DNA of 64,000 nt from Trypanosoma brucei (taxonomy: Eukaryota), in contig CP000070.1 in the NCBI GenBank assembly GCA_000002445.1, positions 768,001 through 832,000 on the forward strand. Direction: 5' to 3'. How positions within the stretch are numbered: the first letter of the stretch is position 1; every line of letters begins with the position of its first letter. Made by a program: the position numbers and the translations under genes. Below are positions 33,708 to 64,000 of the stretch, one piece after another. The notes under the pieces were generated by a model. It saw only the letters and a program-made list of their open reading frames with translations. It was not told the origin of the DNA and ran no database searches.

Positions 33708-33916
33708 AGTTTTTATTTATTCGGCTATCATCTGTTGGTAATCCGCGACGCATAGTTAAATTTTGATGTTGTTGTTTTGTGCAGTAATTTGTGTACATTT
33801 AGCGCTTGGGCTATGCTTGGACTGCTCTTTCTTTCTTTTTTTCCTCGCTTCGTATCAACATTTAAGACTTTCTGCTCGCTCTCATCATATATTATCTCGC
33901 CTAGTTTGTTTTGCAG

Positions 33917-49789: not shown

Positions 49790-50367
49790 CAGAAAAGGAA
49801 TGCTCTTTCTGTATATCTTTTGGGAGAGTGAGATGGTGGGCGTGCCGTAGGTGAGAGTGACTTTCGTGGAGTACCTCGGATACGAATTTAACTCGATCAA
49901 TGATTTATGTTTCCGAACCAGAAGTCGTGAGGGGGATATGAACGGGGGGTGGGAATAATTGGTACCGTCCTTTCGATCTAGATCTAACAATGGCCCGCAT
50001 ATGTAAAGTCTGAGAAACTATCATCCATTGTCACGGTGGCATGCGTTTGCGGGGATGAATAGGGCTTTTTCTTCCGTTTTTTTAAAAGTGGCAAGCGGAC
50101 GTGAGCAACCGAATAATAGAAGAAAAAGGGTTTCGCGGACGTGATTTCACATGGCTGCCTCAAATGTGGGTTAATCAAACTACAGTTGTTTAAAAACCGT
50201 AGAAGGAAGGATAGAAGTGTTGTTCTGAGCAACTCTATAATCCTTTCAACGTATCTTTTCTGCCTCTTTTCTACCCTCTTGTGTTCTCCCCCAAACGGGG
50301 GGTGTGTTGTTGAATTTAGGTATTCATAAGATCTTCGCAGACACGACCGCGGACACTAAGGAAACAA

Positions 50368-51543
50368 ATGATGAGCAGCGGGAACCAACACGAAAAGGTT
50401 CAATTGCAGCAGGGAGGCAATACCCGTGGTCGCTTCTGTTCGGTAACGATAGTGGGATCGGGTGTGTCCACGGGTGTCCCCGTCATTGGTCATCTGTCTT
50501 CTGATTGCGCCTGCGCTGAGGCCTTCCGCGATCCACAGGGTCCTGACAGAAGGAACAATGTCAGCCTCCTCATAACAGTAAGGGACGCCGAATGCACTGG
50601 TAGTGATAGTGAAGATGACAGGAACGCGAAGCACGTACTTATCGACTGCGGCAAAACATTTCGTGATGCCTACTTTCGTGTTCTTGCCAAACACAAGGTA
50701 CGCTATCTTGACGGGTTGCTACTGACGCATGACCATGCGGACGCAGCTGGCGGGGTGGATGACCTTCGTGACCTGCAGCGTGTGACCGTGGACGATGTAA
50801 GTAAGTGCTGCACGATTGAACAGTACATATCAACTTACGCTTCCGAAAAAACCATCGAGTCGCTTCGCCAACAATTTGGATATATTGTGCGAAACAGCTG
50901 GTTGATGGGACCAGCACCGAGCACTGCCGAGGAGCATGAGCTAGTTGTGAAGCGCATGAGGGAGGATCGTGAGCGGGAAGGGCAGACAGACAACATAGGT
51001 TATCGACGGAGTGCTGCACTACACCTTTACACACTGCCTGACACGTACCCATCATCCTTTTACATCCCCGGGTTCGGTGAGAATTTTCCCATGTATGCCT
51101 TACCGGTGGAGCACGGAAAAGGATACATGTCACTTGGTTTTGTATTTGGTCGTGGTGTTGCGCTTCGTAGCACCGGTGCCAGCAGTTGCAACGGATACTC
51201 CTGTGTTGTGTATCTTTCGGATGTAAGCGAAATACCACCAAATGCCATGTCCTTTCTCCGCGATCTAGTGAAAATCGATGTCCTTTTTGTCGATATGTTA
51301 TATGGCCCAGAAGTGAGTCACCCTTCGCACTACTGTATGGACGATACACTGCAACTGGTTTGCGAACTGCAGCCTGCACGCACTTACGCCATCGGCATGT
51401 ATTGTGATATAAAACACGCAGCGGGCAACCGCTTGCTAAAGGAGAGGTTGGAAGAACTACGGGGGGCGGGTAAATGCGGTGATGGCGTAATAACTGTGGA
51501 GTTGGGCTACGATGGAATGACTATGGCACTTCCTCTGTCGTGA
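50368..51543 (+). CDS. Metallo-beta-lactamase-fold hydrolase, PhnP-like
   Basis: The N-terminal TIVGSGVSTGVPVIGHLSSDCACAEAF resembles the PhnP-family opening (tGTGgs.GvP...C.C..C). The H-x-H-x-D-H region reads LLLTHDHADAAGG, i.e. H-D-H-A-D-A, so the last His of the canonical motif is apparently Ala. Later conserved Asp/His positions are present (…YLSDVSEIPP…DMLYGPEVSHPSHYCMDD…). Confidence 0.55.
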   Translation: MMSSGNQHEKVQLQQGGNTRGRFCSVTIVGSGVSTGVPVIGHLSSDCACAEAFRDPQGPDRRNNVSLLITVRDAECTGSDSEDDRNAKHVLIDCGKTFRDAYFRVLAKHKVRYLDGLLLTHDHADAAGGVDDLRDLQRVTVDDVSKCCTIEQYISTYASEKTIESLRQQFGYIVRNSWLMGPAPSTAEEHELVVKRMREDREREGQTDNIGYRRSAALHLYTLPDTYPSSFYIPGFGENFPMYALPVEHGKGYMSLGFVFGRGVALRSTGASSCNGYSCVVYLSDVSEIPPNAMSFLRDLVKIDVLFVDMLYGPEVSHPSHYCMDDTLQLVCELQPARTYAIGMYCDIKHAAGNRLLKERLEELRGAGKCGDGVITVELGYDGMTMALPLS

Positions 51544-52173
51544 GTGACGTTTGCAGAAGTTACATTTCTGTTGAATTTTTTCTACGACAGCGTGCCGTAA
51601 TGCTCTCCCTGCTGCTGCACCACTGGGGGAAGGTCCTTCGGCGTTCGAACATCTTCACTCGTTGCGACCGCGGGTTGCGTTTTTTTATTGCCGATGTTGA
51701 TCCCACCACTGATTTGCAATGTTGGGTCTCTTTTCGATTTGCATTTTATGCAGAATCCCAGACAGGTACCAACGCATTGCTTTCTCACCTCTTTAACGTT
51801 TGCCGCCCCGTTTTGACGACCTGTGTTTTTTTTTATTTGTATGTGTTTGTGTGTGGTGAGAAGCTGCGACTAAGATGGGGAGAATTAATGGAATGTTGGA
51901 GGCCATGGTAGTCCCCAATTGAAGGGAGAGGTGAGTCTTTCGTGTGTCTAATTTATTGCTGTTCCTTCCTCACTTCTCCAGCCTACCGTTAGCGTCAGGA
52001 AAACAAATGAAGAAAATGTGCTTCAAAATATGCACCTGCGGCTATTAAGACCAAGAACAAAGGTATGTGTGCGCGCCTGCCTGCGCTCCGCTGAGTGCAT
52101 GTTTTGTTCTTCTTCACCGTAGTTTCACCCTCTTTCCCCCCTGTAACATCTTCGCCTCCTAGATCCAAGCTAC

Positions 52174-53472
52174 ATGGCTTCCGTGTTCTATATTCTTGAC
52201 AGCAAAGGGTCTCCACTCATATGCCGCTCCTACAGGGGAGATGTCACCCATAACCCTCCGTCTGTCTTTCAGCGCCGAGTGCTTGACGAGGAGGAGTTCC
52301 GCATAACCCCTATTTTTGAGGAACAGGGGTATATCTATTGCTACATACGGGTGAACAACGTGTTCTTCCTGATGGTGAGCAAGTTAAACATTCTCCCACT
52401 GCAGCAATTCGCCTTCATGCGGCAATGTGTCACCGTTTTCGAAAGCTACTTCAAGCACGTGCTAGAGGAAACGATAATGGACAATTTTGTCATTGTATAT
52501 GAGCTACTGGACGAGATGTGTGATTTTGGCTTCCCGCAATACACCGAAGAGAAGTCACTCAAAAAATATATCACACAAGAGAGCCTTATTTCGTACCTGC
52601 TCCCTGAAGATAAGCTCCACGTGAAAGAGCTACCGGCAGAGGCGTCGGGTCGCGGTGGCCTCACGCCGTGGCGTCAGCCTGGTAAGTATAAGTACCGTAA
52701 AAACGAAGTCTTCCTTGATGTTATTGAGAGTGTGAACATCCTTCTCTCACCTGGCGGAGAAACGCTTTCAAGCGAAATATGTGGTCAGATTAAAATGCGT
52801 GTGCGTCTCTCCGGGATGCCGGTCCTGAAACTTGGTCTGAATGACAAGGCTACGTTTGAGATGTTGGCCTCCCGCGGGCGTGCTGTTGAGATGGAGGGCG
52901 TCAAACTGCATCAGTGCGTTAAGCTTAGTCAGTTCGAGAGTCACCGTGTTATTTCTTTCGTACCACCTGATGGGGAATTCGAGCTGATGTCTTACCGCAC
53001 GAGTAAGAAGGTGGCTCCGATGGTTACCGTGGAGTGCACCACCGTTAGTAAAAGCGCGACTCAGGTGGAGATGGCCCTAGTGGCACGCACCACGTTTCGA
53101 CGCACTCTCACCGCATCTTTCTTGGATATTCTTGTGCCGGTCCCGAGCGATGCATTCAAACCGGAGGGGCGGTGCTCGGCGGGAAAGGTTCGTCATGCAC
53201 CGGAGTCCAACTTACTTATGTGGAGTCTGCGCGAGGTAAGTGGTGGTAAGCAATTCACCTGTTCATTCAAATTCAGCCTCCCTTCCGTGCGAAGCAGTGA
53301 TCCATCCGTGTTTGCTAAGGCACCAGTACAAGTGAAATTTGAGGTCCCATACCTTACGGCATCCGGTATTCAAGTGCGGTATTTGAAGGTGGAGGAAGAG
53401 CCGAACTATCAGGCGCTGTCGTGGGTACGGTACGTCACGCAGAGCGGCGACTACCAGATTCGGACGGCGTAA
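52174..53472 (+). CDS. Clathrin adaptor-complex medium (mu) subunit, most similar to AP-1 mu1
   Basis: The N-terminal longin-like domain MASVFYILDSKGSPLICRSYRGDV... and ...DNFVIVYELLDEMCDFGFPQYTEEKSLKKYITQES are near-colinear with mu1/mu2 adaptins (ASAVYVLDLKGKVLICRNYRGDV; DNFVIIYELLDELMDFGYPQTTDSKILQEYITQE). The C-terminal mu-homology domain is ...IKMRVRLSGMPVLKLGLNDKATFE...EFELMSYR...IQVRYLKVEEEPNYQALSWVRYVTQSGDYQIRTA. The mu family is certain; the AP-1 versus other AP assignment is less so. Confidence 0.85.
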   Translation: MASVFYILDSKGSPLICRSYRGDVTHNPPSVFQRRVLDEEEFRITPIFEEQGYIYCYIRVNNVFFLMVSKLNILPLQQFAFMRQCVTVFESYFKHVLEETIMDNFVIVYELLDEMCDFGFPQYTEEKSLKKYITQESLISYLLPEDKLHVKELPAEASGRGGLTPWRQPGKYKYRKNEVFLDVIESVNILLSPGGETLSSEICGQIKMRVRLSGMPVLKLGLNDKATFEMLASRGRAVEMEGVKLHQCVKLSQFESHRVISFVPPDGEFELMSYRTSKKVAPMVTVECTTVSKSATQVEMALVARTTFRRTLTASFLDILVPVPSDAFKPEGRCSAGKVRHAPESNLLMWSLREVSGGKQFTCSFKFSLPSVRSSDPSVFAKAPVQVKFEVPYLTASGIQVRYLKVEEEPNYQALSWVRYVTQSGDYQIRTA

Positions 53473-53793
53473 AAAAAGTAAAGGAGCCAAAGGAAAGCAA
53501 ACAGAAAGAAGTGCGAAGGAAAGCAAAGGGATGGATAGATGCGAATTAAGGGAAAGGAAAGGGAAGTTATTATTTATTGAAATAGGAGGGTTGGCTAACG
53601 AGGAAAAGAAGTGGAATCCAGGAGGAGGCGATAGTGAAAACGCGTCTCCCCTACTCTTTCAGGATGGATGAAGTGGAGAAAAGAAAGGAAGTGCGGTGGA
53701 GACGTGTGCCTCCCAGTGTTCTCATTCGCCGAGGATTGGCCGTCGCCCTTGGCGTGATTTGTGCTGCTCGTTGCTATTGCTACTACATTTTCT

Positions 53794-53818
53794 CCCCCCC
53801 CCCCACACACACACACAT
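53794..53818. repeat. C11 homopolymer then (CA)7
   Basis: Direct reading shows tctccccccccccacacacacacacatt. Confidence 0.85.
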
Positions 53819-54078
53819 TCTATTTCAACGCTTGCTCCATTTGCTACACTTGTGGTTTTTAATGATAAAAAGAGTGCAGGGGGTGGGGGGCGCGTGTGAT
53901 TGGAGGGAGGGGGGCACTGTATTGACACATAACGGGGTGTCCTGCCTTTACCTGTGCTACGGCCTTGTAGCTGCATCGCTGGGGCAACTGTTAACACTCT
54001 GCGTTTCTACTTTGCCCTCTGCTTTACCTTTTGTTCATTTCTTCTCTTAACTTTTTAATTGTTCTCGTCACTGTAGGG

Positions 54079-54097
54079 ACACACACACACACACACA
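54079..54097. repeat. (AC)~9 microsatellite
   Basis: Direct reading shows gggacacacacacacacacacagac. Confidence 0.85.
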
Positions 54098-54236
54098 GAC
54101 AAAGAAAAAAAGAACTACGACTTAAGTTACTTCGTTGGCGGTGAGTTTTCCCACCATCACCACCCGACGCGCGTACTCACTGCAACGAGTGAAAGTGGAA
54201 GTTCACGTGTTGAACGCCCCGTTCTGCACTTCTTCG

Positions 54237-56003
54237 ATGCAGTGGAAAGAGGTATTAGATAGCGAAGATTCCATCGACAGCCCTGAGGCACCATTGCTTA
54301 GTGTCACCAGCGCCCTACTCGCATTTTCCACTGGTGAATTGCAGAGAGGTGAGGAAAGAACGCGCCACCTCGACGCTAGTGATGACTCCAACGGGGGGAC
54401 ACCGCGCTTCGACCATGAGGTGGCTGAAGGCGTCTGTTTTCTATTCACAAAAGAGGCAGGTGAAGATAACAAATTGACCTGCGGTGGGGGTGACCGCGTG
54501 GGTTGCTTCCACGATATGGAAAACCAACGCCTTCTAACAGACTTATGTCCCGGAAACGATGCAGTGGCAAGTGAATGCCAGATGGTCTGGAATGCGGGAA
54601 ATTGGGTTTCACCTTCTGGCGAGGTTGTGGATCAATCAGAGCGGTACCGTGCACTTCTGCCTCTTCAGTGGGGTGTGTGCAAGGACTCTTTCATCACATT
54701 ATCGCGGGACACAGTAACGGATAGTTTGGTGGTGATACATCGCCATCGCTACCCTCGCAGTGGACATGGATCAAATGGTGAGGAGTCACTGGGGCAGCTC
54801 CACATTCCCTTCTCTCAGCCCTGGAGAAGACGTGTGCGGAGTTTGCTAAGTCTCTCCCACACTAATTTGATGCCCGTGACCGATATCATAATGAACGAAG
54901 CAAAGCAGGAACTACTGCTTGTGCATCCGTATATGGATGGTGTGCAGCCCATTGCATCTGCGCTGCGATCGTATCCTCACCTAATATACCGCCCAATCAC
55001 GTCTCCAATGATGTGTAGCATTGTGCGTGGTTTAGTGGACGCGCTACTGTTTCTACACAAGCATGGCATAGTTCATGGTGCGCTTTCTCCGTGGACAGTG
55101 TTACTGACTACTGACAATCGCGCGCTAGTAGCGGGCCCTTCCCTTCAGAACACAACATGGCCCCTGGCCGATCTGGAATCGGTTGGTGGCAACTCGCTTC
55201 ACCCGTCCTTTCACGCACCTCTGGAAGAAAAAGATTCAATGGGGGGACATTGTTTGCCCACGGAGGCTGATGACACCTTCGCACTTGGGGTTCTCATGTT
55301 AGCCATGACTTGGGAGATGTGTGACCCTCTCTGTGTCGAATTGCACGAAAGGGCAGTGAAGTTGACGCACCGTTGCGTGGCGCATAGAATGACACTAATG
55401 GAGTTGAAGGCGAGTCTTGGGCCACTCGTTGACCCCCGAAACCAGCAAGAGAGGAAAGACCGGCAAGAGGAAGAGGGAGAGAAGTGTTCAAAAAGTTGTG
55501 GAGAGCACAACCCATTAAGTACTGTGGAGCTGGTGCCGAAACCGCAACCTCCCGTTGTCACGGGGATCCTACGTCGTACTGATTCCCCCGTTCTTTACAG
55601 AACGACGGGGCTGGATAAGTGGATGACGTCAAGGGCATCCAACATACAAAGAGTGCAGCGAGATGTCGTGGTTACGCTAAAGCCATATAACGAGGATAAG
55701 TTCGATGCTTTGTTGCGGTGGCGGGTTGTGTCCATCACCGTTTTATTTATTGTTTCGATCCGTCGTTCACTTCAGCGGGGCTGCGTGCCACTCAAGAAAA
55801 TATTTTATCACAGTAAAGAGACACCTCCGAGACCGGTGCCACGCCGCCTGCAGCAACACCGCATGACCGTCAGGCGTAGCCCCGTCTCTACCAGCCATGC
55901 GGACAGAACTCATTTACTGCTTCCAGCGCGGGTGCCGCTCACGCAAAATCCGCCACGTGGCGGTGCGCGGGAACGAGACGGAAACTCTTTGGAAGATGAT
56001 TGA
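54237..56003 (+). CDS. Protein-kinase-like domain protein with degenerate catalytic motifs (probable pseudokinase)
   Basis: The track ORF starts at TTG 54135; the first ATG is at 54237 (MQWKEV...). The C-terminal half aligns to kinase subdomains IV-IX: ...HTNLMPVTDIIMNEAKQELLLVHPYMDGVQPIASAL... and then LHKHGIVHGALSPWTVLL. The canonical catalytic loop H-R-D-L-K-P-E-N reads H-G-A-L-S-P-W-T here, so the catalytic Asp and Lys are absent. I see no glycine-rich loop. Confidence 0.5.
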   Translation: MQWKEVLDSEDSIDSPEAPLLSVTSALLAFSTGELQRGEERTRHLDASDDSNGGTPRFDHEVAEGVCFLFTKEAGEDNKLTCGGGDRVGCFHDMENQRLLTDLCPGNDAVASECQMVWNAGNWVSPSGEVVDQSERYRALLPLQWGVCKDSFITLSRDTVTDSLVVIHRHRYPRSGHGSNGEESLGQLHIPFSQPWRRRVRSLLSLSHTNLMPVTDIIMNEAKQELLLVHPYMDGVQPIASALRSYPHLIYRPITSPMMCSIVRGLVDALLFLHKHGIVHGALSPWTVLLTTDNRALVAGPSLQNTTWPLADLESVGGNSLHPSFHAPLEEKDSMGGHCLPTEADDTFALGVLMLAMTWEMCDPLCVELHERAVKLTHRCVAHRMTLMELKASLGPLVDPRNQQERKDRQEEEGEKCSKSCGEHNPLSTVELVPKPQPPVVTGILRRTDSPVLYRTTGLDKWMTSRASNIQRVQRDVVVTLKPYNEDKFDALLRWRVVSITVLFIVSIRRSLQRGCVPLKKIFYHSKETPPRPVPRRLQQHRMTVRRSPVSTSHADRTHLLLPARVPLTQNPPRGGARERDGNSLEDD

Positions 56004-56976
56004 TAGTCACAACGATGTTTCCCTCGAAGTGGGAAGGGGACACCAGGTGAGTGTCGCATCCCCAGTTGTGGATCGATACGTCGTCCCTTCTTTCCACACA
56101 AAATCAAGTGATAGCATTTCTGAATATAACTGCACCAAGCAAAGAGTTTTTTTATAAAAAATACACTCCCATGCACTTGTTATTGATGTAAGTTCGAAGA
56201 GCAATTACTGGCATTATTGTTATTATTTATTTATTCTTTTTTACTTCATACGTTGCTTGCTTTCACGTTTTTAATTTTTGTAGTGTGAGACTGCTACTTG
56301 GTTTGTTTGCGTGGGGGGGGAGCAGTTTGGTCTTCACATTCCGCACCAGTTAACTATGATGCGCCGTCTCTTCGGTAAGACAGTGCACTTCTAAGACAGG
56401 GTTTGGGAAATAAGTTCGCATTTACTCGTTTACTCGCCGCCCTCCTTTGATGCAGAAACGTGTGCATGAAAAAAAAAATACGGAGGTGTTTGGTTATCTT
56501 AATTGTCTTATTTCTTTGTGTTTCATCTGGCGATGCTGTGTGAAACAAATGGAAAGGCAATGAGTTGTTACCATTTCTCAACGTGGTTTTCATTTATTTT
56601 TTCTCATCTGGTTTTCTGTTGTTTTACACCTCTTCATTAAAAATGCTTTGGTGTTTTTCTTTCCATGGCTCCTCTATCCATATAGCACATATGTGGTGTC
56701 ATTTTGCTTATCGTTTCGAAGACGGCTGTGCTTTCTCTCCCGTTGTCGACGTGGAGAAGGGGGTACGACTTCATTACGTACATTTGCTATGTTTTACCTA
56801 AAGAGACTCTCCTAACCTTATTTTATTTGGATATATGTTTTTTCCATACTCTTCTCATCACACACTTATCCAGCGTGCGCCACAAGTGCACGTGGTTCTT
56901 TGTCTTTACGGTCCTCACACAGGGGTCTGTGATCACATTAGGCGGTTCTAGGAGCGAGAAAGCAAAAGGGGGAGAA

Positions 56977-58041
56977 ATGAAAAGCACGGTAACGATGGCA
57001 GCCTCTGTGCGATGCACGCACCGAATCCGTGCCCCGTTGGACCATCTCATCATGCGCCCTTCAGATATGGATCAGGTGGTGACATCTATCGGCACTACAG
57101 ACGCCGCTATCGTTACATGGTACATGCCACTGGCCAATCTTCAGCATATTCTTCATAGACGCTATGAGGCGGAGCAGTTTGGAGAAATTATCATTCCTCC
57201 CGTCACCACCCAAGATCCCACCACATCCGCCGATGAACAGAACAACAACCCTCTTGGCTTTGTTACGCTTGTTGCTGGGAGGAATTATCCGCAAAAGCAA
57301 ACGTGGCTTGAGCGCGTATTTGACCCCGCACCGCATTCGACACTGAGTCTCCGTGTGGCAGTGATGGACCGTGTCCACTGGCAGCGAACATCGTGGATGG
57401 CAAACTCGATCTGCCGCAGCATATGCTGGGGGCGCCTACCGCAAAAGATGTTCTCTATTAATTTAGACTGGAAAAATGCAGTCCATATCGACGCTGACTT
57501 CGATGTGGACGCGGACAGGTACAATGCACCATACAGTGTGCATGTACCGGGTTTGGGTTTCCAACTTACATTGCGCGATACCGGCCGCACTGTGCTCGAC
57601 CGCGAGACCCCTACGGTTGACGGGTTTTTAGATAATGAAAGTGCCCTACACCGTCTAGCACTCGCACGGGAGGTGAACATGCAGGGGTTAGGCGGTTGCG
57701 TGTACCGCCAAACGCTGTGGAGTGCACCGTCACTTCCCAACACAGCAAAGGTGATGCAATTTCAGCCGGGAGAATTGTTCAAGCGGTGTTTTGGAGTTGA
57801 TCCGCCGGCACACGTGGAGCCAGTGGCTGCGTGGCTTGTGCATGAGGTGGAGCAAACACTTGTGTACAAAATGGAAGGCGAGGTGGAGGATGAGAACGAG
57901 CCAAATAGTGCGACAACGTACGGTGACCGTTCTCTCACTGAGCGTGTGCAGAAAAAAGCAATGAACCGATACAATGGGTTCCGTGACGAGGTACGTGGCA
58001 AGGTGTATAGTGAACTGGATGGAAAGGAATTGCCGCGCTAG
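56977..58041 (+). CDS. Hypothetical protein (354 aa), no recognisable domain
   Basis: The track ORF starts at TTG 56704 and runs through T-rich low-complexity sequence. The first ATG is at 56977 (MKSTVTMAAS...), after a long poly-T/pyrimidine region (56560-56700). Confidence 0.55.
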   Translation: MKSTVTMAASVRCTHRIRAPLDHLIMRPSDMDQVVTSIGTTDAAIVTWYMPLANLQHILHRRYEAEQFGEIIIPPVTTQDPTTSADEQNNNPLGFVTLVAGRNYPQKQTWLERVFDPAPHSTLSLRVAVMDRVHWQRTSWMANSICRSICWGRLPQKMFSINLDWKNAVHIDADFDVDADRYNAPYSVHVPGLGFQLTLRDTGRTVLDRETPTVDGFLDNESALHRLALAREVNMQGLGGCVYRQTLWSAPSLPNTAKVMQFQPGELFKRCFGVDPPAHVEPVAAWLVHEVEQTLVYKMEGEVEDENEPNSATTYGDRSLTERVQKKAMNRYNGFRDEVRGKVYSELDGKELPR

Positions 58042-58344
58042 AAGCGCATATACGTCCATGAAATCCCCTCGCGCAGTACTGTCAAAAAAAAAAGTGGGTG
58101 GACAGATGACATCCACTTCACTTACATACTTAACCACGGTTGAACGTGATAAACATACCGCAACAATTCGTGGGTTACACTTGTTTTACGTAATAACACA
58201 TATCTGGTAATAGCTGGGTTTTGTATCGCCAACTTCCTTTCTTCCCTTTTTCTTCGTGATGAGGGATAGCTTCCTGGATGATGCCCAAATACGTGTGATT
58301 CTGCGCACCTTCAGTCCTTTTCGTTGCCGTTTATCCACGGTTGT

Positions 58345-58389
58345 TTTCCTTTTCTTTTCCTCTTTTTCCTTCTATGTTACTTCATTACA
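58345..58389 (+). promoter_or_regulatory. Polypyrimidine tract plus AG (ttacag) immediately upstream of the kinase-like CDS, putative SL trans-splice acceptor region
   Basis: The sequence ttttccttttcttttcctctttttccttctatgttacttcattacag is followed 12 nt later by ATG 58401. Confidence 0.45.
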
Positions 58390-58400
58390 GGACGCTGGCG

Positions 58401-60248
58401 ATGGCGACCTCTCGCAAGCAGGTAGTTGGCAAATACGAACTGGGGAAGGTTTTGGCGTCAGGATACTTCGATTGCCGCACTCGTATCTGCACGCACATAG
58501 TGACAGGAGCGCAATACGTCGTACGGATATACAGTAAAAGTACTCTGGCGGAGGCGCAGTGGATGTGGGATCGCACTCGCGATGCCATCCACGTCATGCG
58601 TACGCTGCCAAAGCACGAAAATATTATTGAGATTTCAGAGCTATTTGAAACAGAATCCTCACTCTACATTCTTATGCAGCTGTTCGCACCGATGCATCTG
58701 ACGAAGATGTATACAACTGTAGGTGAATCGGGGCAACGTGAGAGAGTGCCCATACAAAGGACAAAGGCACTTTTCCTGCAAGTTGTGCGGGGTTTAAGAC
58801 ACATGCACGACTGTAGTGTGGTGCACTTGGGACTGGCACCAGACCACGTCATGGTGAATGACAGGGACCATGTGAAAATTGGCAATCTCGTCTCTTGTAA
58901 ATATGTCCCAAAAGGAACGAAGTTGTGCCGTGACATTCGTGGCACAATGCACACCGTAGCGCCGGAGGTATTACGCAACGGGGAGTATGATCCTTATCTT
59001 GCGGACTCGTGGTCCATGGGCGTATTACTCTACTTCATGTTACACAATGGACGCTACCCGCACGATGGGGCAAATACAACGAAAAATATTTTATACAATA
59101 GGATCCGCCCACCTGATCCAAAGCTACCAGCAGAGGCGCTGAACCTATTGCAGCAGCTGCTGAGCCACAATCCCGGTTCTCGAATGCGTGTGGAACAAAT
59201 TGCGGATCACCCATTCTTTGCGACAGAACATAAAGATGTCGATACAGGTAGAACGGAGCAACAAGCAGCCAGATATACTGGCGTGGTGCCGAATTTATGG
59301 GCTAGCAGGACTGCGCATATCCCAGTAGTGCTAAGGGCGCCACTTAAGGAGCGAGTTCAGTACAGTGGTAACCGAGAGGACGCAGCCGCTTACCTGATAC
59401 AAATGTGTTATAAGGCATTCAGAGGCCGCAAACGGCGCTTTAGTGACCGCTTTTTGAGCACTCAACCACGTGGATCTATAAACCGCAGCCGCAGTCAAGT
59501 GGTTGAAGTGGTATGCCCCTCTTCACGATCGCGCCGAAGGAAGAATTACCAAACTCCGCACGGTGATACAGAGGCAGCCTTCGGACAGGAGCGAACGCAC
59601 CTCAGCTCGCAACACTATCAGCAACGATGGAGCGCAGTAACAAACACAGAAATGCAGCAAGGGGAACTGGGAAGCCGGACAAGCTCAATCAACAGTGGGT
59701 TCGCAAAATGTGGAGAAGGGCCTGCAGACCCGGCCGAAGGGAGCTCTTTTTTTGGGTTTAGCGGAAGCGAGTCAGAAGGTAGTCCAATGAACGCCACACA
59801 GGGATCCCATTTCAATTTTTCTTTGAAGTCGGGAAATTTGCCTCTGACCTTGCCACCACTCAGACGACAAGGAGGTCCCTGCAAGCTCGGCTGTGACCCT
59901 ACACTCGATGCTCCTGTTGGCACCCCTCCCAACAGTACTTTCGACGGACCCGATAACGCTTCCCCCACAACCGCATCCGTTTGCAACGAAGTGGTCCGTG
60001 CCGCATCATTCCGATTGCGAGTTCCCTCGATGCTTCACTTGAAGGCTGCTGAGGCATTTTCTCGGGACCTCGATCTTAGGGGCCCCGGTTTCACTCATTT
60101 CAACACGCGAGTTGACCCCGGGAGGCGTTGCCCGGTGTGCGACAGGCCCCCCGCGCAACGAATGAATCGTAAACAACCGTACCTGAACACACCATATGAG
60201 TACAAGGAGGGGAAATTTACCATTAAAACTGTTGCGGACTCTGATTAA
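58401..60248 (+). CDS. CAMK/AMPK-related-like protein-kinase domain protein with substituted catalytic residues (probable pseudokinase)
   Basis: The track ORF starts at TTG 58341. ATGs lie at 58374 and 58401; I chose 58401 (MATSRKQVVGKYELGKVL...) because it follows the pyrimidine tract and AG. The kinase fold is recognisable: YELGKVLASGYFDCRTRIC (G-loop region), HENIIEISELFETESSLYILMQLF (subdomain IV-V), ALFLQVVRGLRHMHDCSVVHLGLAPDHVMV (HRDLKPEN becomes HLGLAPDH), KIGNLVSC (DFG becomes GNL), TVAPEVL and DSWSMGVLLYFML. A ~330-aa low-complexity C-terminal tail follows. Confidence 0.6.
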   Translation: MATSRKQVVGKYELGKVLASGYFDCRTRICTHIVTGAQYVVRIYSKSTLAEAQWMWDRTRDAIHVMRTLPKHENIIEISELFETESSLYILMQLFAPMHLTKMYTTVGESGQRERVPIQRTKALFLQVVRGLRHMHDCSVVHLGLAPDHVMVNDRDHVKIGNLVSCKYVPKGTKLCRDIRGTMHTVAPEVLRNGEYDPYLADSWSMGVLLYFMLHNGRYPHDGANTTKNILYNRIRPPDPKLPAEALNLLQQLLSHNPGSRMRVEQIADHPFFATEHKDVDTGRTEQQAARYTGVVPNLWASRTAHIPVVLRAPLKERVQYSGNREDAAAYLIQMCYKAFRGRKRRFSDRFLSTQPRGSINRSRSQVVEVVCPSSRSRRRKNYQTPHGDTEAAFGQERTHLSSQHYQQRWSAVTNTEMQQGELGSRTSSINSGFAKCGEGPADPAEGSSFFGFSGSESEGSPMNATQGSHFNFSLKSGNLPLTLPPLRRQGGPCKLGCDPTLDAPVGTPPNSTFDGPDNASPTTASVCNEVVRAASFRLRVPSMLHLKAAEAFSRDLDLRGPGFTHFNTRVDPGRRCPVCDRPPAQRMNRKQPYLNTPYEYKEGKFTIKTVADSD

Positions 60249-60976
60249 AATAGGAGTTGCAGACGGTGCACGTTTATTTGTGAATGTAAGACGCATGACG
60301 GTGCAATGCACGTCAATCTAACCAATAGCGAGTGGCGGATGCCGAGAAGAATGAAGGAGAACATGTTGTTGATGAGGGAATGCGTGTTTGCACACTCGCG
60401 TGCATGTGCCCTTTTCCCTTCCCCTGTCTTTCACACTTCATTTCTACTCTTTTCTCAAAAAAAAAAGGGGGGGTGATGGGGAGTGGAGGAAAATGTTGTG
60501 AATCATACTTTTGTACATTTAGATGTAGACGACGAGTTTTACCTTCACGCCGGCCACACTCATTGAGGGCGCGCGGTGGTTCGTCTGCCGGGTGTTTGGG
60601 GGCTAGTTCCGCCCTGTGCCTATTTTCATCCACATTCGAGATCCTTCCCTGCCCCCTCATTTCGAGTCTTGACTGTACTTACCGTCTTTCACTATGGTCA
60701 GTGAATTCCTCCCATTATGCGTATTTTTACCTCCAACATGTATTTAGATTTGTCCCCCTCCTTCTTTTTTTTTCTTTTTCTCCCCCTCTCGTTCGCTCAC
60801 GAGTGAAGGAAGGGACAAGTAAACCCCGTGGGCACAGGGTAGATACCTGCGCGCTAGCGCACTGAACTGTAAGGTAGAAAACAAGCGGCACTGTCGCTCA
60901 CTCACCCCTTCGCCCCGCTGTGGTCAGATAGAGTTGGACACATAGGCCAATAAACGCAAAGCAAGGCACGCAACCA

Positions 60977-61501
60977 ATGGCGTTTAATCGCTCTCTTATC
61001 GTCACCCTTTTCTTCACACTCTGCGACCTTATTCTGCTTTGCATCCTACCAATCTACAGTCACGGTCTTTCCGGTCACATCCTTGTAGCACTTCATGTGG
61101 GCACTTTGGTCGTTCTTGCCTCCATGATGAGCCTGTTCACCCTTCGAACCTCCTTCCTTGTCGAAGGGCGGTCCAGTAAAGCCTTGTTCCCACAGCGCGT
61201 GACCGGTCCTCTGTGGTTGCTTCATGTTGTGCTTACTCCGGCACCACTAGTGTATAAAGAATTCATAATGCCGTGGGTATACACATCGGTGGAAAGTGCA
61301 CCCCGGGCGTGGGCGGACTCCGCTTACATCACGCTTTCCGTGCTCAACATAACCACGTACGTGGCTTTCAGTGTGTCGCTGCTTTACTTTATTTTCTTCA
61401 TAGCGGAAAGACGGCTTTACAAATTTCATTGCCACATCAGCCGCACCGGAACGGCAACTGACAATGCGACGGTGGCGCTCAATTGCAATCCACTGGAATG
61501 A
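60977..61501 (+). CDS. Small hypothetical membrane protein (174 aa, ~4 hydrophobic segments)
   Basis: ATG-initiated ORF. Hydrophobic helices are IVTLFFTLCDLILLCILPIY, ILVALHVGTLVVLASMMSLF, LWLLHVVLTPAPLV and ITLSVLNITTYVAFSVSLLYFIFFI. Confidence 0.45.
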   Translation: MAFNRSLIVTLFFTLCDLILLCILPIYSHGLSGHILVALHVGTLVVLASMMSLFTLRTSFLVEGRSSKALFPQRVTGPLWLLHVVLTPAPLVYKEFIMPWVYTSVESAPRAWADSAYITLSVLNITTYVAFSVSLLYFIFFIAERRLYKFHCHISRTGTATDNATVALNCNPLE

Positions 61502-62240
61502 CTCAGTGGAAAAAGGGGGGGAGGTCTTTTGGCCATGGGGAGTCTGAAACGGGGCAGGGCGTCGGCTTCATTTCTCAACACCGAGTTACGGGGGCCCTTG
61601 TCAAAGCACAACGGCATCAGTTGGGTGCGACCTCGCTGTTACGAAGCTTGTAACGGGGGAAAGGGGCGACCCAAGGGCAAATTTCGCGATGGGAGGTATT
61701 GCATGATTTAGGGGGAGGAAGGTTCGCTCGCAATGGGGTGCTATTTCACCCTGTTCGGCCCGATGTGAAGGAACAAACAAACCCCTTTTCTTGCACATGA
61801 GGTGCGGTAACTCAGAGGAAAACAAAGCGAGATTAATTTCTGGTGCGTTGTTGCACCCATTTCCGTCTACGCAAAAGCAGGCGGCCCTCGAGGTGAGGGG
61901 GGGGGGCAACACATCCCACTTTGCTACCGCGCCATTTGGTGTACAAATATGCCCTTCTGTAACGTTCCTGTTCCTAGCGGTGGTTCGCAATGTTTTTCCC
62001 CACCGAGTTCTAACGGTTCAGTGCCTTCAACTGTCCTGGCTCCTCACCTACCTTCCACCTTTGACACCGCGGAAACCTGTCTCGTGAAGTCCCGCTTGTC
62101 GGCACCATAACCCCTGCAATACCGAGTTCCCGTGTACCAAGGATGCTTTGTTTTTCTTTTTCTAAAAAAAAAAAGTAAAGGAAAATAACACGAGCGTGTT
62201 TGGTACCCGTTCGCGTCTCTAAGCGGGGACGGGGGCGGAA

Positions 62241-62861
62241 ATGCGAGCTGAAAAGGTGACAGTATCGCCCGCTGGTGAAGGTGCCGCGCCCCTATTTGTG
62301 TTCGGTTACGGCTCCATACTGTGGAAGCAGCAGTTCGAGTACCTCCGCGCGTTGCCATGCTGCGTTCATGGCTACAAGAGGGTTTTCTATCAGGGCAGTA
62401 CGGACCACCGTGGCGTCCCCGCCAGGCCAGGCCGCGTTGTAACACTTCTCACGTGTGGCGACCCGGAGGCATGGGTGGGTGGGGTCGCGTTTGAGCTCCC
62501 GGTAGAGGAGGAGAAGCGGGAGAAAATCCTTGCCCAACTTGACGACCGCGAGAGTGGGGGCTATGAGCGGGAGGAGGTGACACTCTATGACATCAAAACG
62601 CACGAAAGGCTTCATTTGCCGCCCGGTGCCGTATGTTTATGTTATAGAGCAACTGAAGACAATCCTGAATACCTGGGGGAGGCAAAAGATGAAGCTATCG
62701 CCGAACAGATTTTGAGCTGTGAAGGATTGAGTGGACCGAACTCGGAATATTTGTTTAAGCTTGCTGAGGCACTTCGTAAACTGGAGAGTGCTGACCAACA
62801 TGTATTTGCAGTCGAGACCGCGGCTCTCCACATCATGAAGGCGCAAAATGTTCCCGAGTGA
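62241..62861 (+). CDS. ChaC-like gamma-glutamylcyclotransferase (glutathione-specific GGCT family)
   Basis: The N-terminal [16 protein letters not shown] matches the ChaC signature (vFGYGSLiW). It is followed by ...[22 protein letters not shown]...VGGVAFELP...[10 protein letters not shown], colinear with ChaC1/ChaC2 ([22 protein letters not shown]...GVAYRLP...EKGGY). Confidence 0.8.
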   Translation: [206 protein letters not shown]

Positions 62862-63324
62862 AGCAAAGCGTGGAACGGGGGACGAGCAAAACCAAGGTAC
62901 GCAAACGCCACCGTCGAATGCCTCTGTTAACACCAATTAGACTTCTTCATGAACCCCTGCGCAAGGGTGCGCGCATCTGCCTCGCCGAAGACGCGCCTGC
63001 AACAGTTTTATCAATGAATCGATTCCTTCTTTCCTTCTATTAATTTACTTGTCTACTTTATCATACGCATGTTGTAACGATCATTTCTTTACTCCCCCAG
63101 CAGGCATCTGCTTAACCTTTCACATTCCAATAATTCCCCCCTTTCGTTTAATGGAGACTCGCAACTCTCACCCGTGGGGTAACACGTAACGGCATTCAGG
63201 GGGATGCAAAGAGGAAAACTTGTTCCGTATTAACGATGGTGTGCAATATTCTCCCCCATTATTTCAACTGAATAAAAAAAAGGAAAGGAGAGGCCCCGCA
63301 CTTCTCGGTGCCGTGTCACACCAC

Positions 63325-64000
63325 GATGGATGGACAGCGTGCAACAAAGGGAGTGGGACATGCCAGTGATTGGGCAGAACTTCGCCGCGCCCTCTTTAAT
63401 GTTCACCTGTTGCTAGCACTTCAAGAGGGCAGTGTGACACAACCACCGGGGGAAGAGAAGGTCGTAGCGAGTAGGGAGGCATCGCAACCGTTGTTGGAGC
63501 GTGGCTGTGGCATGAATCGGGTTCAGAGCGTCTCGCTCATGACGCTGGAGTTGGAAGATAGTACGGATGCGCTTCATTCCCAATGCTTAGAGAAACATGA
63601 GGAAAAGAGGGGCGTATGTCGTGCCCTTCCGCTTCCGCCGCTTCGATGGGCTGTTCCATCGCATCAGCAGCGTCTCGCGGCCTTGGAAAAGGAAAGGCGG
63701 CGGCGACAAAGGAAAAATGCCGCGGCAGAAGGGAAACTAAACATGTTGGGAAACACTCTTGGGAGTGGTGATACGCGGCAGCCGTCCTCCATTACTGGAA
63801 GTAGCGCAACTGCAAAGGTAATGGAATTGGATAAAAACGTAATGAAAGAGGATCTTCAGGATGGAACTGCGTCGCCCGCTCATTCAACTCGATCGTCCCT
63901 GACGAGAACCGGTGACCACAGCGAATGTGAGAGCTCGCAGGATACATACACAGCTGCTTTCGCGTCCGTGGACGATCACTGTCCTCGAGAGATGCCTTCG
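63325..64000 (+). CDS. Partial CDS (N-terminal 225 codons; continues beyond the window), hypothetical
   Basis: An ATG at 63325 opens a frame with no stop through the window end (MDGQRATKGVGHASDWAELRRALFNVHLLLALQEG...). It is same-strand as all other genes and has a charged/coiled segment (LAALEKERRRRQRKNAAAEGK). Confidence 0.45.

What the first reader, a model, noticed from the sequence alone, without database searches (positions are those of the whole stretch)
54237..60248. Two neighbouring kinase-fold genes that both lack catalytic-loop residues (likely pseudokinases), flanking an unrelated ORF
The gene at 54237-56003 has HKHGIVHGALSPWTVLL where HRDLKPEN is expected and has no Gly-rich loop. 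The gene at 58401-60248 keeps an AMPK/CAMK-like scaffold, including APE and the DxWSxG motif. It has HLGLAPDH for HRDLKPEN, GNL for DFG, and VVRIY at the expected VAIK position, where no lysine is apparent. Having two degenerate kinases about 2.4 kb apart in one transcription unit is unusual and suggests regulatory or scaffolding pseudokinases.
Basis: partly seen in the sequence, partly recalled or inferred. Interest (0 to 1): 0.5.

Follow-up and report, generated by a model that had tools for sequence, protein, structure and literature searches.

The report
Two catalogued trypanosome pseudokinases, neighbours
The two genes are Trypanosoma brucei Tb927.7.3190 and Tb927.7.3210, which really are kinase-fold proteins without the catalytic residues, but both have been listed as pseudokinases since 2005 and already screened by RNAi and knockout, so the finding is correct and not new.

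Summary
The window is T. brucei TREU927. Published RNAi primers map uniquely into the two genes, identifying 54237-56003 as Tb927.7.3190 and 58401-60248 as Tb927.7.3210. Both are listed as 'Pseudo-Orphan' among the 12 predicted T. brucei pseudokinases.

The substitutions are shared by all orthologues examined (about 30 kinetoplastid sequences for Tb927.7.3210, about 10 Trypanosoma sequences for Tb927.7.3190), so they are not sequencing errors.

Tb927.7.3210 is a well-folded CAMKL-like domain lacking the beta3 Lys, HRD Asp, catalytic Asn, DFG Asp and most of the Gly loop. It also carries a conserved IQ-like helix and a conserved C-terminal CxxC...PY...G.F motif. Tb927.7.3190 is a much more degenerate, fast-evolving kinase-derived domain that I found only in trypanosomatids.

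The two are not detectable paralogues. Sharing 'one transcription unit' means little, because every large ORF in the 64-kb window lies on the + strand (polycistronic).

Published data show slow growth after Tb927.7.3210 RNAi. Both Leishmania mexicana orthologues are dispensable, one localising to the basal body/flagellum and the other to the cytoplasm.

Novelty: already known. Interest: low.

The parts
54237..56003 (+). Gene A = Tb927.7.3190, 588 aa, orphan pseudokinase
   Evidence: The Jones 2014 RNAi primers for Tb927.7.3190 match uniquely at 54892-54911 (+) and 55325-55344 (-). It is 98% identical to T. b. equiperdum P0121, and the T. cruzi orthologue is named 'putative Pseudokinase'.
54642..55412 (+). 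Gene A degenerate kinase-like domain (residues 136-392)
   Evidence: hhalign against canonical CAMKL kinases gives probability 98.8%, E 7.6e-17, over residues 196-392, which span helix C to subdomain XI. Pfam PK_Tyr_Ser-Thr scores 28.4 bits. The AlphaFold model has the kinase order of secondary-structure elements but a mean pLDDT of only 34.8. All top 50 Foldseek hits are kinases, with poor TM scores.
55074..55097 (+). Gene A catalytic-loop remnant HGALSPWT (for HRDLKPEN): the Asp, Lys and Asn are all replaced
   Evidence: Alignment to LKB1 and hhalign fix the register. H, G, L, S, P, W and T are invariant in 7 Trypanosoma sequences and present in P0128-P0131.
55134..55142 (+). Gene A DFG-equivalent GPS (GFA, GFG, GYA or GLL in other Trypanosoma)
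   Evidence: The Asp is Gly in all orthologues.
55719..55760 (+). Gene A C-terminal hydrophobic helix WRVVSITVLFIVSI, a possible membrane anchor (inferred)
   Evidence: This is the highest Kyte-Doolittle window in the protein (1.61 over 19 aa). AlphaFold predicts a helix at 487-513. The W-R start is invariant in Trypanosoma. A similar hydrophobic stretch lies at the C-terminus of the L. major positional orthologue.
56977..58041 (+). Intervening conserved gene of unknown function (presumably Tb927.7.3200); not a kinase
   Evidence: It has no Pfam hit and no PDB hit. It is 61-67% identical to the syntenic L. major gene. The start at 56977 was chosen from the orthologue alignment.
58401..60248 (+). 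Gene C = Tb927.7.3210, 615 aa, CAMKL-like pseudokinase
   Evidence: The Jones 2014 RNAi primers for Tb927.7.3210 match uniquely at 58485-58504 (+) and 58905-58924 (-). It is 100% identical to T. brucei TREU927 P0001.
58422..59228 (+). Gene C kinase-fold domain (residues 8-276)
   Evidence: Pfam Pkinase scores 120.9 bits. The best PDB sequence hits are CIPK24, MARK1-4, MELK, SIK3 and Snf1. AlphaFold pLDDT is about 90 over residues 1-280. Foldseek finds SIK3, MARK and AMPK at E about 1e-22.
58452..58481 (+). Gene C remodelled Gly-rich loop LASGYFDCRT, with Asp at the position of the third Gly
   Evidence: F, D, C and R are invariant or nearly so in 30 orthologues. It is among the six most conserved 8-residue windows of the domain.
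58518..58532 (+). Gene C beta3 VVRIY: the catalytic Lys is Arg
   Evidence: It is Arg in 25 of 28 orthologues; Lys is retained only in the divergent environmental sequences P0021, P0027 and P0032.
58824..58847 (+). Gene C catalytic-loop remnant HLGLAPDH (Asp to Gly, Lys to Ala, Asn to His)
   Evidence: H, A, P, D and H are invariant across 30 orthologues and the Gly is nearly invariant. Window conservation is 0.90 against a domain mean of 0.68.
58881..58889 (+). Gene C DFG-equivalent GNL
   Evidence: The Asp position is Gly or Ser in all 28 orthologues.
59385..59435 (+). Gene C IQ-like motif AAYLIQMCYKAFRGRKR on a predicted long helix
   Evidence: It matches the relaxed pattern [FILV]Qxxx[RK]xxxx[RK]. 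A329 and Q334 are invariant across 30 orthologues. AlphaFold predicts a helix at 325-352. The Pfam IQ model passes its cut-off only for the Phytomonas orthologue segment; the T. brucei segment gives no hit.
60129..60224 (+). Gene C conserved C-terminal motif CPxCxRxPxxR...PY..T.Y.Y..G.F
   Evidence: C577, C580, R587, P593, Y594 and G604 are at least 90% conserved; the alignment is shown. AlphaFold predicts a beta-hairpin at 599-608 with pLDDT 60-83. There is no Pfam match.

Best explanation
The two genes are Tb927.7.3190 (gene A) and Tb927.7.3210 (gene C). They are two independent, intact and conserved pseudokinases of Trypanosoma brucei. They sit near each other because of inherited gene order, not because they form a unit.

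Shown for gene C:
- It is a well-folded CAMKL-type kinase domain.
- Every element needed for canonical phosphotransfer is replaced: the Gly-loop glycines, beta3 Lys, helix-C Glu, HRD Asp, catalytic-loop Lys and Asn, and DFG Asp.
- The replacements are fixed across kinetoplastids.
- The substrate-side scaffold (APE, DxWSxG, subdomain XI Arg) is kept.

Inferred for gene C:
- It cannot bind Mg-ATP productively and works as a scaffold or allosteric partner.
- Its conserved IQ-like helix recruits an EF-hand protein (calmodulin, a centrin or a light chain).
- Its conserved C-terminal CxxC/PY motif provides a second docking site, at the basal body and flagellum, where the Leishmania orthologue localises.
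- Its loss slows bloodstream-form growth.

Gene A is a much more eroded, rapidly evolving kinase-derived domain. It is flanked by disordered regions and a C-terminal hydrophobic helix, and I found it only in trypanosomatids. It most likely acts as a dispensable protein-interaction module.
For: - **Identity:** published RNAi primers map uniquely into each gene. Both genes are listed as 'Pseudo-Orphan' pseudokinases.
- **Missing residues in gene C:**. The same substitutions occur in 28 orthologues from Trypanosoma, Leishmania, Leptomonas, Phytomonas, Angomonas and environmental kinetoplastid-like sequences.
- **Missing residues in gene A:**
- **Fold:** Pfam. The AlphaFold kinase domain of gene C has pLDDT about 90 and gives SIK3, MARK and AMPK Foldseek hits. 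hhalign for gene A gives 98.8%.
- **Selection:** the degenerate Gly loop and catalytic loop of gene C are among the most conserved windows of the domain. Parsons 2005 reports Ka/Ks 0.11 for predicted-inactive TriTryp kinases.
- **IQ and C-terminal motifs:** conserved across orthologues.
- **Published function:** Tb927.7.3210 RNAi gives slow growth with an unclassified cell-cycle defect. LmxM.22.1170 localises to basal body, flagellum and cytoplasm and is dispensable. LmxM.22.1150 is cytoplasmic and dispensable. Orthology of both was verified by mapping the paper's primers onto the syntenic L. major locus.
- **Independence:** BLASTP of A against C gives E 0.27. hhalign of A against C scores 116, lower than A against canonical CAMKL at 134. 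Gene A is absent between AP-mu and the gene C orthologue in two environmental kinetoplastid-like contigs.
Against: - No biochemical test of ATP binding or activity exists for either protein, as far as I could find.
- The T. brucei IQ segment does not hit the Pfam IQ model on its own. EF-hand binding is therefore inferred from family-level conservation only.
- Localisation data are from Leishmania, not T. brucei. I found no TrypTag entry for either gene in the supplementary files held for that paper.
- The gene A model is of low confidence (pLDDT 34.8), and one kinome study dropped this gene as lacking a kinase domain (Nett 2009).
- The hydrophobic core of the gene A helix is only about 12-14 residues. 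The N-terminally tagged Leishmania orthologue looked cytoplasmic, which argues against a membrane anchor.
- The very strong conservation of the remodelled pocket in gene C could instead mean a retained ligand or an unusual activity.
Confidence: 0.8

Rival explanations
1. One or both proteins keep a non-canonical enzymatic activity. This could be phosphotransfer with relocated residues, as in WNK or CASK, or a different chemistry such as AMPylation, as in SelO. The remodelled pocket of gene C (FDCR loop, Arg at beta3, HxGxAPDH) would then be an active site rather than a dead one.
For: - The degenerate Gly loop and catalytic loop of gene C are among the six most conserved windows of the domain (0.90 against a mean of 0.68).
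- D148 and H149 are invariant in 30 orthologues.
- Three divergent orthologues still carry the beta3 Lys.
- The L. major orthologue of gene A keeps the catalytic-loop Lys and Asn (HGNLKPNN) and an Asp-containing 'DHL' in place of DFG.
Against: - In T. brucei, every one of the Lys, Asp, Asn and Asp residues is replaced and most Gly-loop glycines are replaced in both proteins.
- An acidic residue replaces the third Gly-loop glycine in gene C, which should repel the phosphates (inference).
- No relocated Lys or Asp is apparent in the alignments.
- Conservation of a pseudo-active site is also typical of pseudokinases that use the pocket for conformational control (established knowledge of the field).
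Confidence: 0.08
2. The two genes form a functional pair. They would be ancient tandem duplicates, or a co-selected module with the gene between them, for example pseudokinases that heterodimerise. Their adjacency would then be meaningful.
For: - The chance of two of 12 pseudokinases lying within two gene positions is about 0.03.
- The order A - conserved gene - C is retained in L. major.
Against: - There is no specific sequence relationship between A and C.
- Gene order is broadly conserved between Trypanosoma and Leishmania anyway (established knowledge), and flanking unrelated genes (Lactamase_B_2, AP-mu, ChaC) are retained as well.
- Environmental kinetoplastid-like contigs keep AP-mu ... 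gene C ... ChaC, but have neither gene A nor the middle gene.
- The Leishmania orthologues localise differently, one cytoplasmic and one at the basal body.
- Polycistronic transcription makes co-transcription uninformative.
Confidence: 0.07
3. The degenerate motifs are artefacts, arising from sequencing or assembly errors or from decaying pseudogenes.
For: Gene A is weakly conserved (37% identity to T. cruzi; E only 5e-4 to the L. major positional orthologue). One kinome study excluded it.
Against: - Both ORFs are long and uninterrupted.
- The same substitutions recur in independent genomes.
- Gene C is 100% identical to the database protein.
- RNAi of Tb927.7.3210 has a phenotype.
Confidence: 0.02

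Closest known systems
Tb927.7.3210 and Tb927.7.3190 as catalogued in the T. brucei kinome (Parsons et al. 2005, PMC1266030; Jones et al. 2014, PMC3894213), with the L. mexicana orthologues LmxM.22.1170 and LmxM.22.1150 (Baker et al. 2021, PMC7902614)
   Same: These are the very same genes, as shown by the primer matches. They are already classed as predicted inactive kinases or pseudokinases, already knocked down in T. brucei, and already deleted and localised in L. mexicana.
   Different: - The T. brucei literature files Tb927.7.3210 as 'Pseudo-Orphan'. Sequence and predicted structure here place it with CAMKL kinases, in agreement with the L. mexicana label 'CAMK/CAMKL'.
- I did not find the IQ-like helix, the C-terminal CxxC/PY motif or the strong conservation of the remodelled pocket mentioned in the papers read.
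CAMKL kinases (MARK/Par-1, SIK, AMPK/Snf1, plant CIPK)
   Same: They are the best sequence and fold matches to gene C (E 5e-28 to 1e-19; Foldseek E about 1e-22). The APE, DxWSxG and subdomain XI Arg are shared.
   Different: Gene C lacks all catalytic residues. No UBA, KA1 or NAF domain was detected. It carries an IQ-like helix and a kinetoplastid-specific C-terminal motif instead.
CAMK-group pseudokinases or atypical kinases that bind calmodulin (CASK CaM-kinase domain, CaMKv). This resemblance is recalled from established knowledge; CASK also appears among the Foldseek hits (3c0g)
   Same: Each has a CAMK-type fold with a degenerate metal-binding DFG motif, followed by a helical calmodulin-binding segment, and is used as a scaffold.
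   Different: CASK keeps the beta3 Lys and HRD Asp and has Mg-independent activity, whereas gene C has neither residue. Calmodulin binding by gene C is untested.
LKB1/STK11 and the STRAD-type pseudokinase scaffolds
   Same: LKB1 is the best PDB sequence match to gene A (E 2.6e-7, residues 197-328). STRAD is the textbook example of a kinase-fold scaffold without catalysis (established knowledge).
   Different: The match covers only helix C to the activation segment at low identity. No orthology is implied, and gene A has no detectable relatives outside trypanosomatids beyond generic kinase similarity.
AAK1-like pseudokinase Tb927.9.6560 of T. brucei (PMC10952953)
   Same: It is another of the 12 T. 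brucei pseudokinases. Its RNAi, like that of Tb927.7.3210, gave a growth phenotype in the same screen.
   Different: It belongs to a different kinase group (Other/NAK) and is an unrelated gene.

Membership tests
Eukaryotic protein kinase fold (Pfam Pkinase PF00069 / PK_Tyr_Ser-Thr PF07714) | Gene C: significant match to the kinase-domain profile over its full length | tested here: met
   Pkinase scores 120.9 bits against a cut-off of 31.7, covering profile positions 15-263 of 263. The AlphaFold domain has pLDDT about 90, and Foldseek finds kinases at E about 1e-22.
Eukaryotic protein kinase fold (Pfam Pkinase PF00069 / PK_Tyr_Ser-Thr PF07714) | Gene A: significant match to the kinase-domain profile | tested here: inconclusive
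   Pkinase scores 21.2 bits, below its 31.7 cut-off, while PK_Tyr_Ser-Thr scores 28.4, above its 23.1 cut-off; both matches are partial. hhalign of the family profile against CAMKL kinases gives 98.8%, E 7.6e-17, but only from helix C onward. The N-lobe strands are predicted only in a model of pLDDT 34.8. The L. major positional orthologue passes the Pkinase cut-off (49.9 bits). Overall the domain is kinase-derived, but a complete fold is not proven.
Catalytically competent protein kinase | Beta3 Lys (VAIK), HRD Asp and DFG Asp are present | tested here: not met
   Gene C has Arg, Gly and Gly at these positions. Gene A has His, Ala and Gly. The catalytic Asn is also lost in both (His in gene C, Thr in gene A).
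Pseudokinase (kinase fold lacking one or more of the Lys/Asp/Asp residues, conserved as such) | The loss of catalytic residues is shared by orthologues and the ORF is maintained | tested here: met
   28 orthologues of gene C and about 10 Trypanosoma orthologues of gene A carry the same losses. Both ORFs are intact.
Pseudokinase | Experimentally shown lack of phosphotransfer or nucleotide binding | not testable with these tools
   This needs recombinant protein assays. None were found in the papers searched.
CAMK group / CAMKL family | Gene C: closest relatives by sequence and structure are CAMKL kinases | tested here: met
   The top PDB sequence hits are CIPK24, MARK1-4, SNRK, MELK, SIK3, BRSK2 and Snf1. 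The top Foldseek hits are SIK3, MARK and AMPK. The L. mexicana orthologue is labelled CAMK/CAMKL. No formal phylogeny was run.
CAMK group / CAMKL family | Family-typical accessory domains (UBA, KA1 or NAF) follow the kinase domain | tested here: not met
   No Pfam domain other than the kinase domain was found in the 615-aa protein.
IQ calmodulin-binding motif (Pfam PF00612; consensus [FILV]Qxxx[RK]Gxxx[RK]) | Match of the gene C segment 329-345 to the IQ consensus or profile | tested here: inconclusive
   The T. brucei segment fits only the relaxed pattern, with Ala in place of the Gly, and gives no Pfam IQ hit. The Phytomonas orthologue segment passes the IQ cut-off (21.6 against 20.3) and the IQ_SCN5A_C cut-off (28.5 against 27.7). 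The 'AA..IQ...[RK]' core is conserved in about 30 orthologues. Binding itself was not tested.
Tandem paralogue pair | Genes A and C are more similar to each other than to other kinases | tested here: not met
   BLASTP gives E 0.27. hhalign of A against C scores 116 over 128 columns, compared with 134 over 181 columns for A against canonical CAMKL kinases.

The most novel reading that the evidence does not exclude
The Tb927.7.3210 family would not be a passive dead kinase. It would be a kinetoplastid-wide, EF-hand-protein-regulated basal-body/flagellar switch. Its remodelled pocket is invariant (Gly-loop FDCR, beta3 Arg, HxGxAPDH). That pocket would bind a non-ATP ligand or metal, or carry out a non-canonical reaction. 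The IQ helix and the C-terminal CxxC/PY motif would act as its input and output docking sites.
Probability: 0.1. Interest if true: 0.55.

Novelty: already known. Interest (0 to 1): 0.15.

Why it matters
As found, it matters little. The two genes are already in every trypanosomatid kinome list as predicted inactive kinases, and both have been through RNAi or knockout screens.

The modest added value lies in four points:
- Tb927.7.3210, filed as an 'orphan' pseudokinase in T. brucei, is clearly CAMKL-derived. It carries a conserved IQ-like helix and a conserved C-terminal motif. Together with the basal-body/flagellum localisation of its Leishmania orthologue, this gives a concrete, testable hypothesis for how it works (docking of an EF-hand protein).
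- Its dead active site is among the most conserved parts of the protein, so the pocket is worth mutating.
- The disputed status of Tb927.7.3190 (included in 2005, dropped in 2009, re-included in 2014) is resolved in favour of a kinase-derived domain.
- The proximity of the two genes should not be read as functional linkage.

Tried and rejected
- **Wider relatives of gene A by word-indexed search.** A single-sequence search and a profile search returned only six Trypanosoma sequences. The exhaustive HMM search added four more Trypanosoma-type sequences, and after those only generic kinases.
- **AlphaFold model of gene A from the 7-sequence alignment.** The mean pLDDT was 34.8, too poor for structural conclusions. 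The Foldseek hits are all kinases, but with TM scores of 0.25-0.41 normalised by target length, so I use them only as weak support.
- **Tandem-duplication idea.** Rejected.
- **Identifying the intervening gene.** It has no Pfam hit and no PDB hit, so its function remains unknown.
- **Testing whether the gene between AP-mu and the gene C orthologue in environmental contigs is a diverged gene A or middle gene.** No similarity was found.
- **TrypTag localisation for the three T. brucei genes.** Nothing was found in the supplementary files held. A transition-fibre proteome paper also has no mention.
- **Pfam match for the C-terminal CxxC motif.** Only a meaningless Rad50 zinc-hook hit appeared, at E 0.94.
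- **Sequencing-error or pseudogene reading.** Rejected on the orthologue alignments.

Full report
**1. What is there**

The region holds three + strand ORFs. Gene A is at 54237-56003 (588 aa). A middle ORF has its conserved part starting at 56977 and ends at 58041. Gene C is at 58401-60248 (615 aa).

Gene C is 100% identical to a 'protein kinase, putative' of Trypanosoma brucei brucei TREU927, on a 2.2-Mb contig. Gene A is 98% identical to a T. b. equiperdum protein, and its T. cruzi orthologue is named 'putative Pseudokinase'.

**2. Exact identity**

The supplementary primer table of the kinome-wide RNAi screen of Jones et al. 2014 (PMC3894213) gives gene-specific primers.
- The Tb927.7.3190 pair matches the window uniquely at 54892-54911 (+) and 55325-55344 (-), inside gene A.
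- The Tb927.7.3210 pair matches uniquely at 58485-58504 (+) and 58905-58924 (-), inside gene C.

In that paper's Table S1, both genes are listed under 'Pseudokinases' as 'Pseudo-Orphan'. Parsons et al. 2005 (PMC1266030) had already predicted 13 T. brucei ePKs to be inactive because they lack the subdomain II Lys or the subdomain VI/VII Asp. That study found them to be under purifying selection (Ka/Ks 0.11) and proposed protein-protein regulatory roles. The finding is therefore a correct rediscovery of catalogued genes.

**3. Check of the observation**

Gene C:
- It matches Pfam Pkinase at 120.9 bits over nearly the whole profile.
- It aligns to CIPK24 and MARK2 so that VAIK reads VVRI, HRDLKPEN reads HLGLAPDH and DFG reads GNL, with APE and DxWSxG retained.
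- A MAFFT alignment with PKA, six canonical CAMKL kinases and 28 orthologues confirms the register.
- That alignment also shows the Gly loop is ASGYFD (the third Gly is Asp) and the helix-C Glu is Ala.

Gene A:
- It matches PK_Tyr_Ser-Thr at 28.4 bits (above the cut-off) and Pkinase at 21.2 bits (below it), over residues 199-362 only.
- LKB1 is its best PDB relative, with HKDIKPGN aligned to HGALSPWT.
- The DFG position reads GPS, the beta3 position reads VVIH, the helix-C Glu is Arg, and the Gly-loop region keeps one Gly.

All motif coordinates were re-translated.

**4. Not errors: conservation of the substitutions**

For gene C, all 28 orthologues carry H-x-G/S for HRD, Ala for the catalytic-loop Lys, His for the Asn, and Gly/Ser for the DFG Asp. 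These come from Trypanosoma spp., Leishmania, Leptomonas, Phytomonas, Angomonas and many environmental sequences. The beta3 Lys is Arg in all but three divergent environmental sequences, which keep Lys.

For gene A, the seven aligned Trypanosoma sequences have H-G-x-L-S-P-W-T invariant. Four further representatives found by the exhaustive HMM search carry the same motif.

**5. Is gene A really kinase-derived?**

Nett et al. 2009 (PMC2716717) removed Tb927.7.3190 from their kinome because it did 'not seem to possess' a catalytic domain. Four results bear on this:
- A profile-profile comparison of the gene A family with canonical CAMKL kinases gives 98.8% probability and E 7.6e-17. It aligns residues 196-392 from helix C to subdomain XI.
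- The AlphaFold model is poor (pLDDT 34.8 from 7 sequences). Its secondary-structure order is nonetheless that of a kinase: three strands, helix C, two strands, helices D and E, two short strands, then helices F to I.
- All 50 best Foldseek hits are kinase domains, although TM scores are low.
- The L. major positional orthologue passes the Pkinase cut-off (49.9 bits). It is less eroded, with HGNLKPNN, 'DHL', APE and DIYALG.

I conclude that gene A is a degenerate kinase-derived domain. The integrity of its N-lobe is not proven.

**6. Structure and extra features of gene C**

With 30 sequences, AlphaFold gives pLDDT about 90 for residues 1-280. It predicts a long helix at 325-352 and a short C-terminal hairpin at 599-608, with the rest disordered. 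Foldseek places the domain with SIK3, MARK and AMPK (E about 1e-22). CASK and phosphorylase kinase gamma also appear among the hits.

The helix carries an IQ-like motif (AAYLIQMCYKAFRGRKR). Its 'AA..IQ...[RK]' core is conserved in essentially all orthologues. The Pfam IQ model passes its cut-off for the Phytomonas segment but not for the T. brucei one.

The last ~40 residues hold a motif, CPxCxRxPxxR...PY..T.Y.Y..G.F, that is conserved across the family. The CxxC part is lost in Phytomonas.

Within the kinase domain, the remodelled Gly loop (GYFDCRTR) and catalytic loop (HLGLAPDH) are among the six most conserved 8-residue windows. Their mean top-residue frequency is 0.90, against 0.68 for the whole domain.

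**7. Context and the 'one transcription unit' argument**

All ORFs of at least 250 aa in positions 1-50000 are on the + strand, as are the plausible genes in positions 50000-64000. The window includes a dynein heavy chain, a kelch/BTB protein, a metallo-beta-lactamase-fold protein, an adaptor-complex mu subunit and a ChaC protein. This is an ordinary trypanosomatid polycistronic array, so co-transcription says nothing about shared function (established knowledge).

The L. major chromosome 22 locus has the same order: Lactamase_B_2, AP-mu, a 1056-aa weak-Pkinase gene, a 453-aa conserved gene, a 938-aa pseudokinase, one further gene, then two ChaC genes.

Primers from Baker et al. 2021 (PMC7902614) map onto this locus:
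- LmxM.22.1150 is the gene A orthologue (Other/unique; cytoplasm; dispensable).
- LmxM.22.1170 is the gene C orthologue (CAMK/CAMKL; basal body, flagellum, cytoplasm; dispensable).

Two environmental kinetoplastid-like contigs keep the order AP-mu, one small unrelated gene, the gene C orthologue, a GDSL lipase, then ChaC or PIP5K. They have no recognisable gene A or middle gene. Gene C is therefore the older resident of this position, and gene A is trypanosomatid-specific or diverged beyond recognition.

**8. Are the two genes related or a pair?**

BLASTP of A against C gives E 0.27. The gene A profile scores lower against the gene C family (116 over 128 columns) than against canonical CAMKL kinases (134 over 181 columns). 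There is no evidence for a tandem duplication.

By simulation, two of 12 pseudokinases fall within two gene positions among about 9000 genes with p about 0.03. That is suggestive at most, and it is a post hoc test.

The evolutionary rates differ sharply. [quoted passage not shown] Gene A is 37% identical to its T. cruzi orthologue and barely alignable to the Leishmania one (E 5e-4). The unrelated middle gene is 61-67% identical to its Leishmania orthologue.

**9. How it most likely works**

*Shown:* neither protein has the residues for canonical Mg-ATP binding and phosphotransfer. Both ORFs are maintained, with the substitutions fixed. Depletion of Tb927.7.3210 slows bloodstream-form growth with an unclassified cell-cycle defect. 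Tb927.7.3190 had no phenotype in the individual RNAi line (Alamar blue ratio about 1.0), although the earlier RITseq screen scored it at day 3. Both Leishmania orthologues can be deleted in promastigotes.

*Inferred for gene C:* it is a CAMKL-derived scaffold. Its intact C-lobe surface, IQ-like helix and C-terminal motif would dock partners. An EF-hand protein on the IQ helix is the obvious candidate. The site of action would be the basal body and flagellum. The invariant pocket would serve conformational control or ligand binding rather than catalysis.

*Inferred for gene A:* it is a fast-evolving interaction module. Its C-terminal hydrophobic helix might anchor it to a membrane, but the helix is short and the Leishmania orthologue appeared cytoplasmic.

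**10. Verdict**

The finding is already known, and interest is low. The residual novelty is the IQ/C-terminal-motif architecture and the unusually constrained dead pocket of Tb927.7.3210, both of which are cheap to test.

Noticed in passing
window 58374-58403: The database protein for gene C (P0001, 624 aa) starts at an upstream ATG (58374, MLLHYRTLA-MATS...). The first AG after the long polypyrimidine tract lies at 58389-58390, between the two ATGs. Orthologues begin at the position of the 58401 ATG.
   Followed up: partly
window 56977-58041 (ORF opens at 56704): The gene between the two pseudokinases is strongly conserved (61-67% identity to the syntenic L. major gene; the C-terminal 50 residues are nearly identical). 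It has no Pfam family and no relative in the PDB, so it is a conserved trypanosomatid protein of unknown function.
   Followed up: partly
L003 7194-13345; L005 6908-14947: Environmental kinetoplastid-like contigs keep the order AP-mu, one small unrelated gene, the gene C orthologue, a GDSL lipase, then ChaC or PIP5K. They lack any recognisable gene A or middle gene. This suggests both were inserted, or diverged beyond recognition, on the trypanosomatid branch.
   Followed up: partly
P0021, P0027, P0032 (orthologues of gene C; L003 10001-11476 encodes P0021): Three divergent environmental orthologues keep the beta3 Lys (AVKI) while already lacking the HRD Asp, the catalytic Asn and the DFG Asp. 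The Lys-to-Arg change therefore seems to be the last step of the degeneration.
   Followed up: no
L001 3425-6595 (L. major orthologue of gene A): The Leishmania protein is almost twice as long (1056 aa). It has a large insertion splitting the kinase-like domain and keeps more kinase features (HGNLKPNN, an Asp-containing 'DHL', APE). It ends in a hydrophobic stretch followed by basic residues, like a tail anchor.
   Followed up: partly
window 59055-59078 (gene C residues 219-226): YPHDGANT is the second most conserved 8-residue window of the gene C kinase domain across about 30 orthologues (0.95). It is a family-specific signature with no counterpart in canonical CAMKL kinases, and its role is unknown.
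   Followed up: no
window 54237-56003 compared with P0121: Gene A differs from its T. b. equiperdum counterpart at about 2% of residues, and the T. b. equiperdum counterpart has one extra C-terminal residue (Trp after the final EDD). That looks high for subspecies of T. brucei and fits the fast evolution of this gene.
   Followed up: no
window 33911-49789, 13168-16254 and 1-2000: The window also holds a dynein heavy chain of about 5290 aa and a kelch/BTB protein, all on the + strand. The first 2 kb of the window has a much lower G+C content (0.376) than the rest (about 0.5).
   Followed up: no
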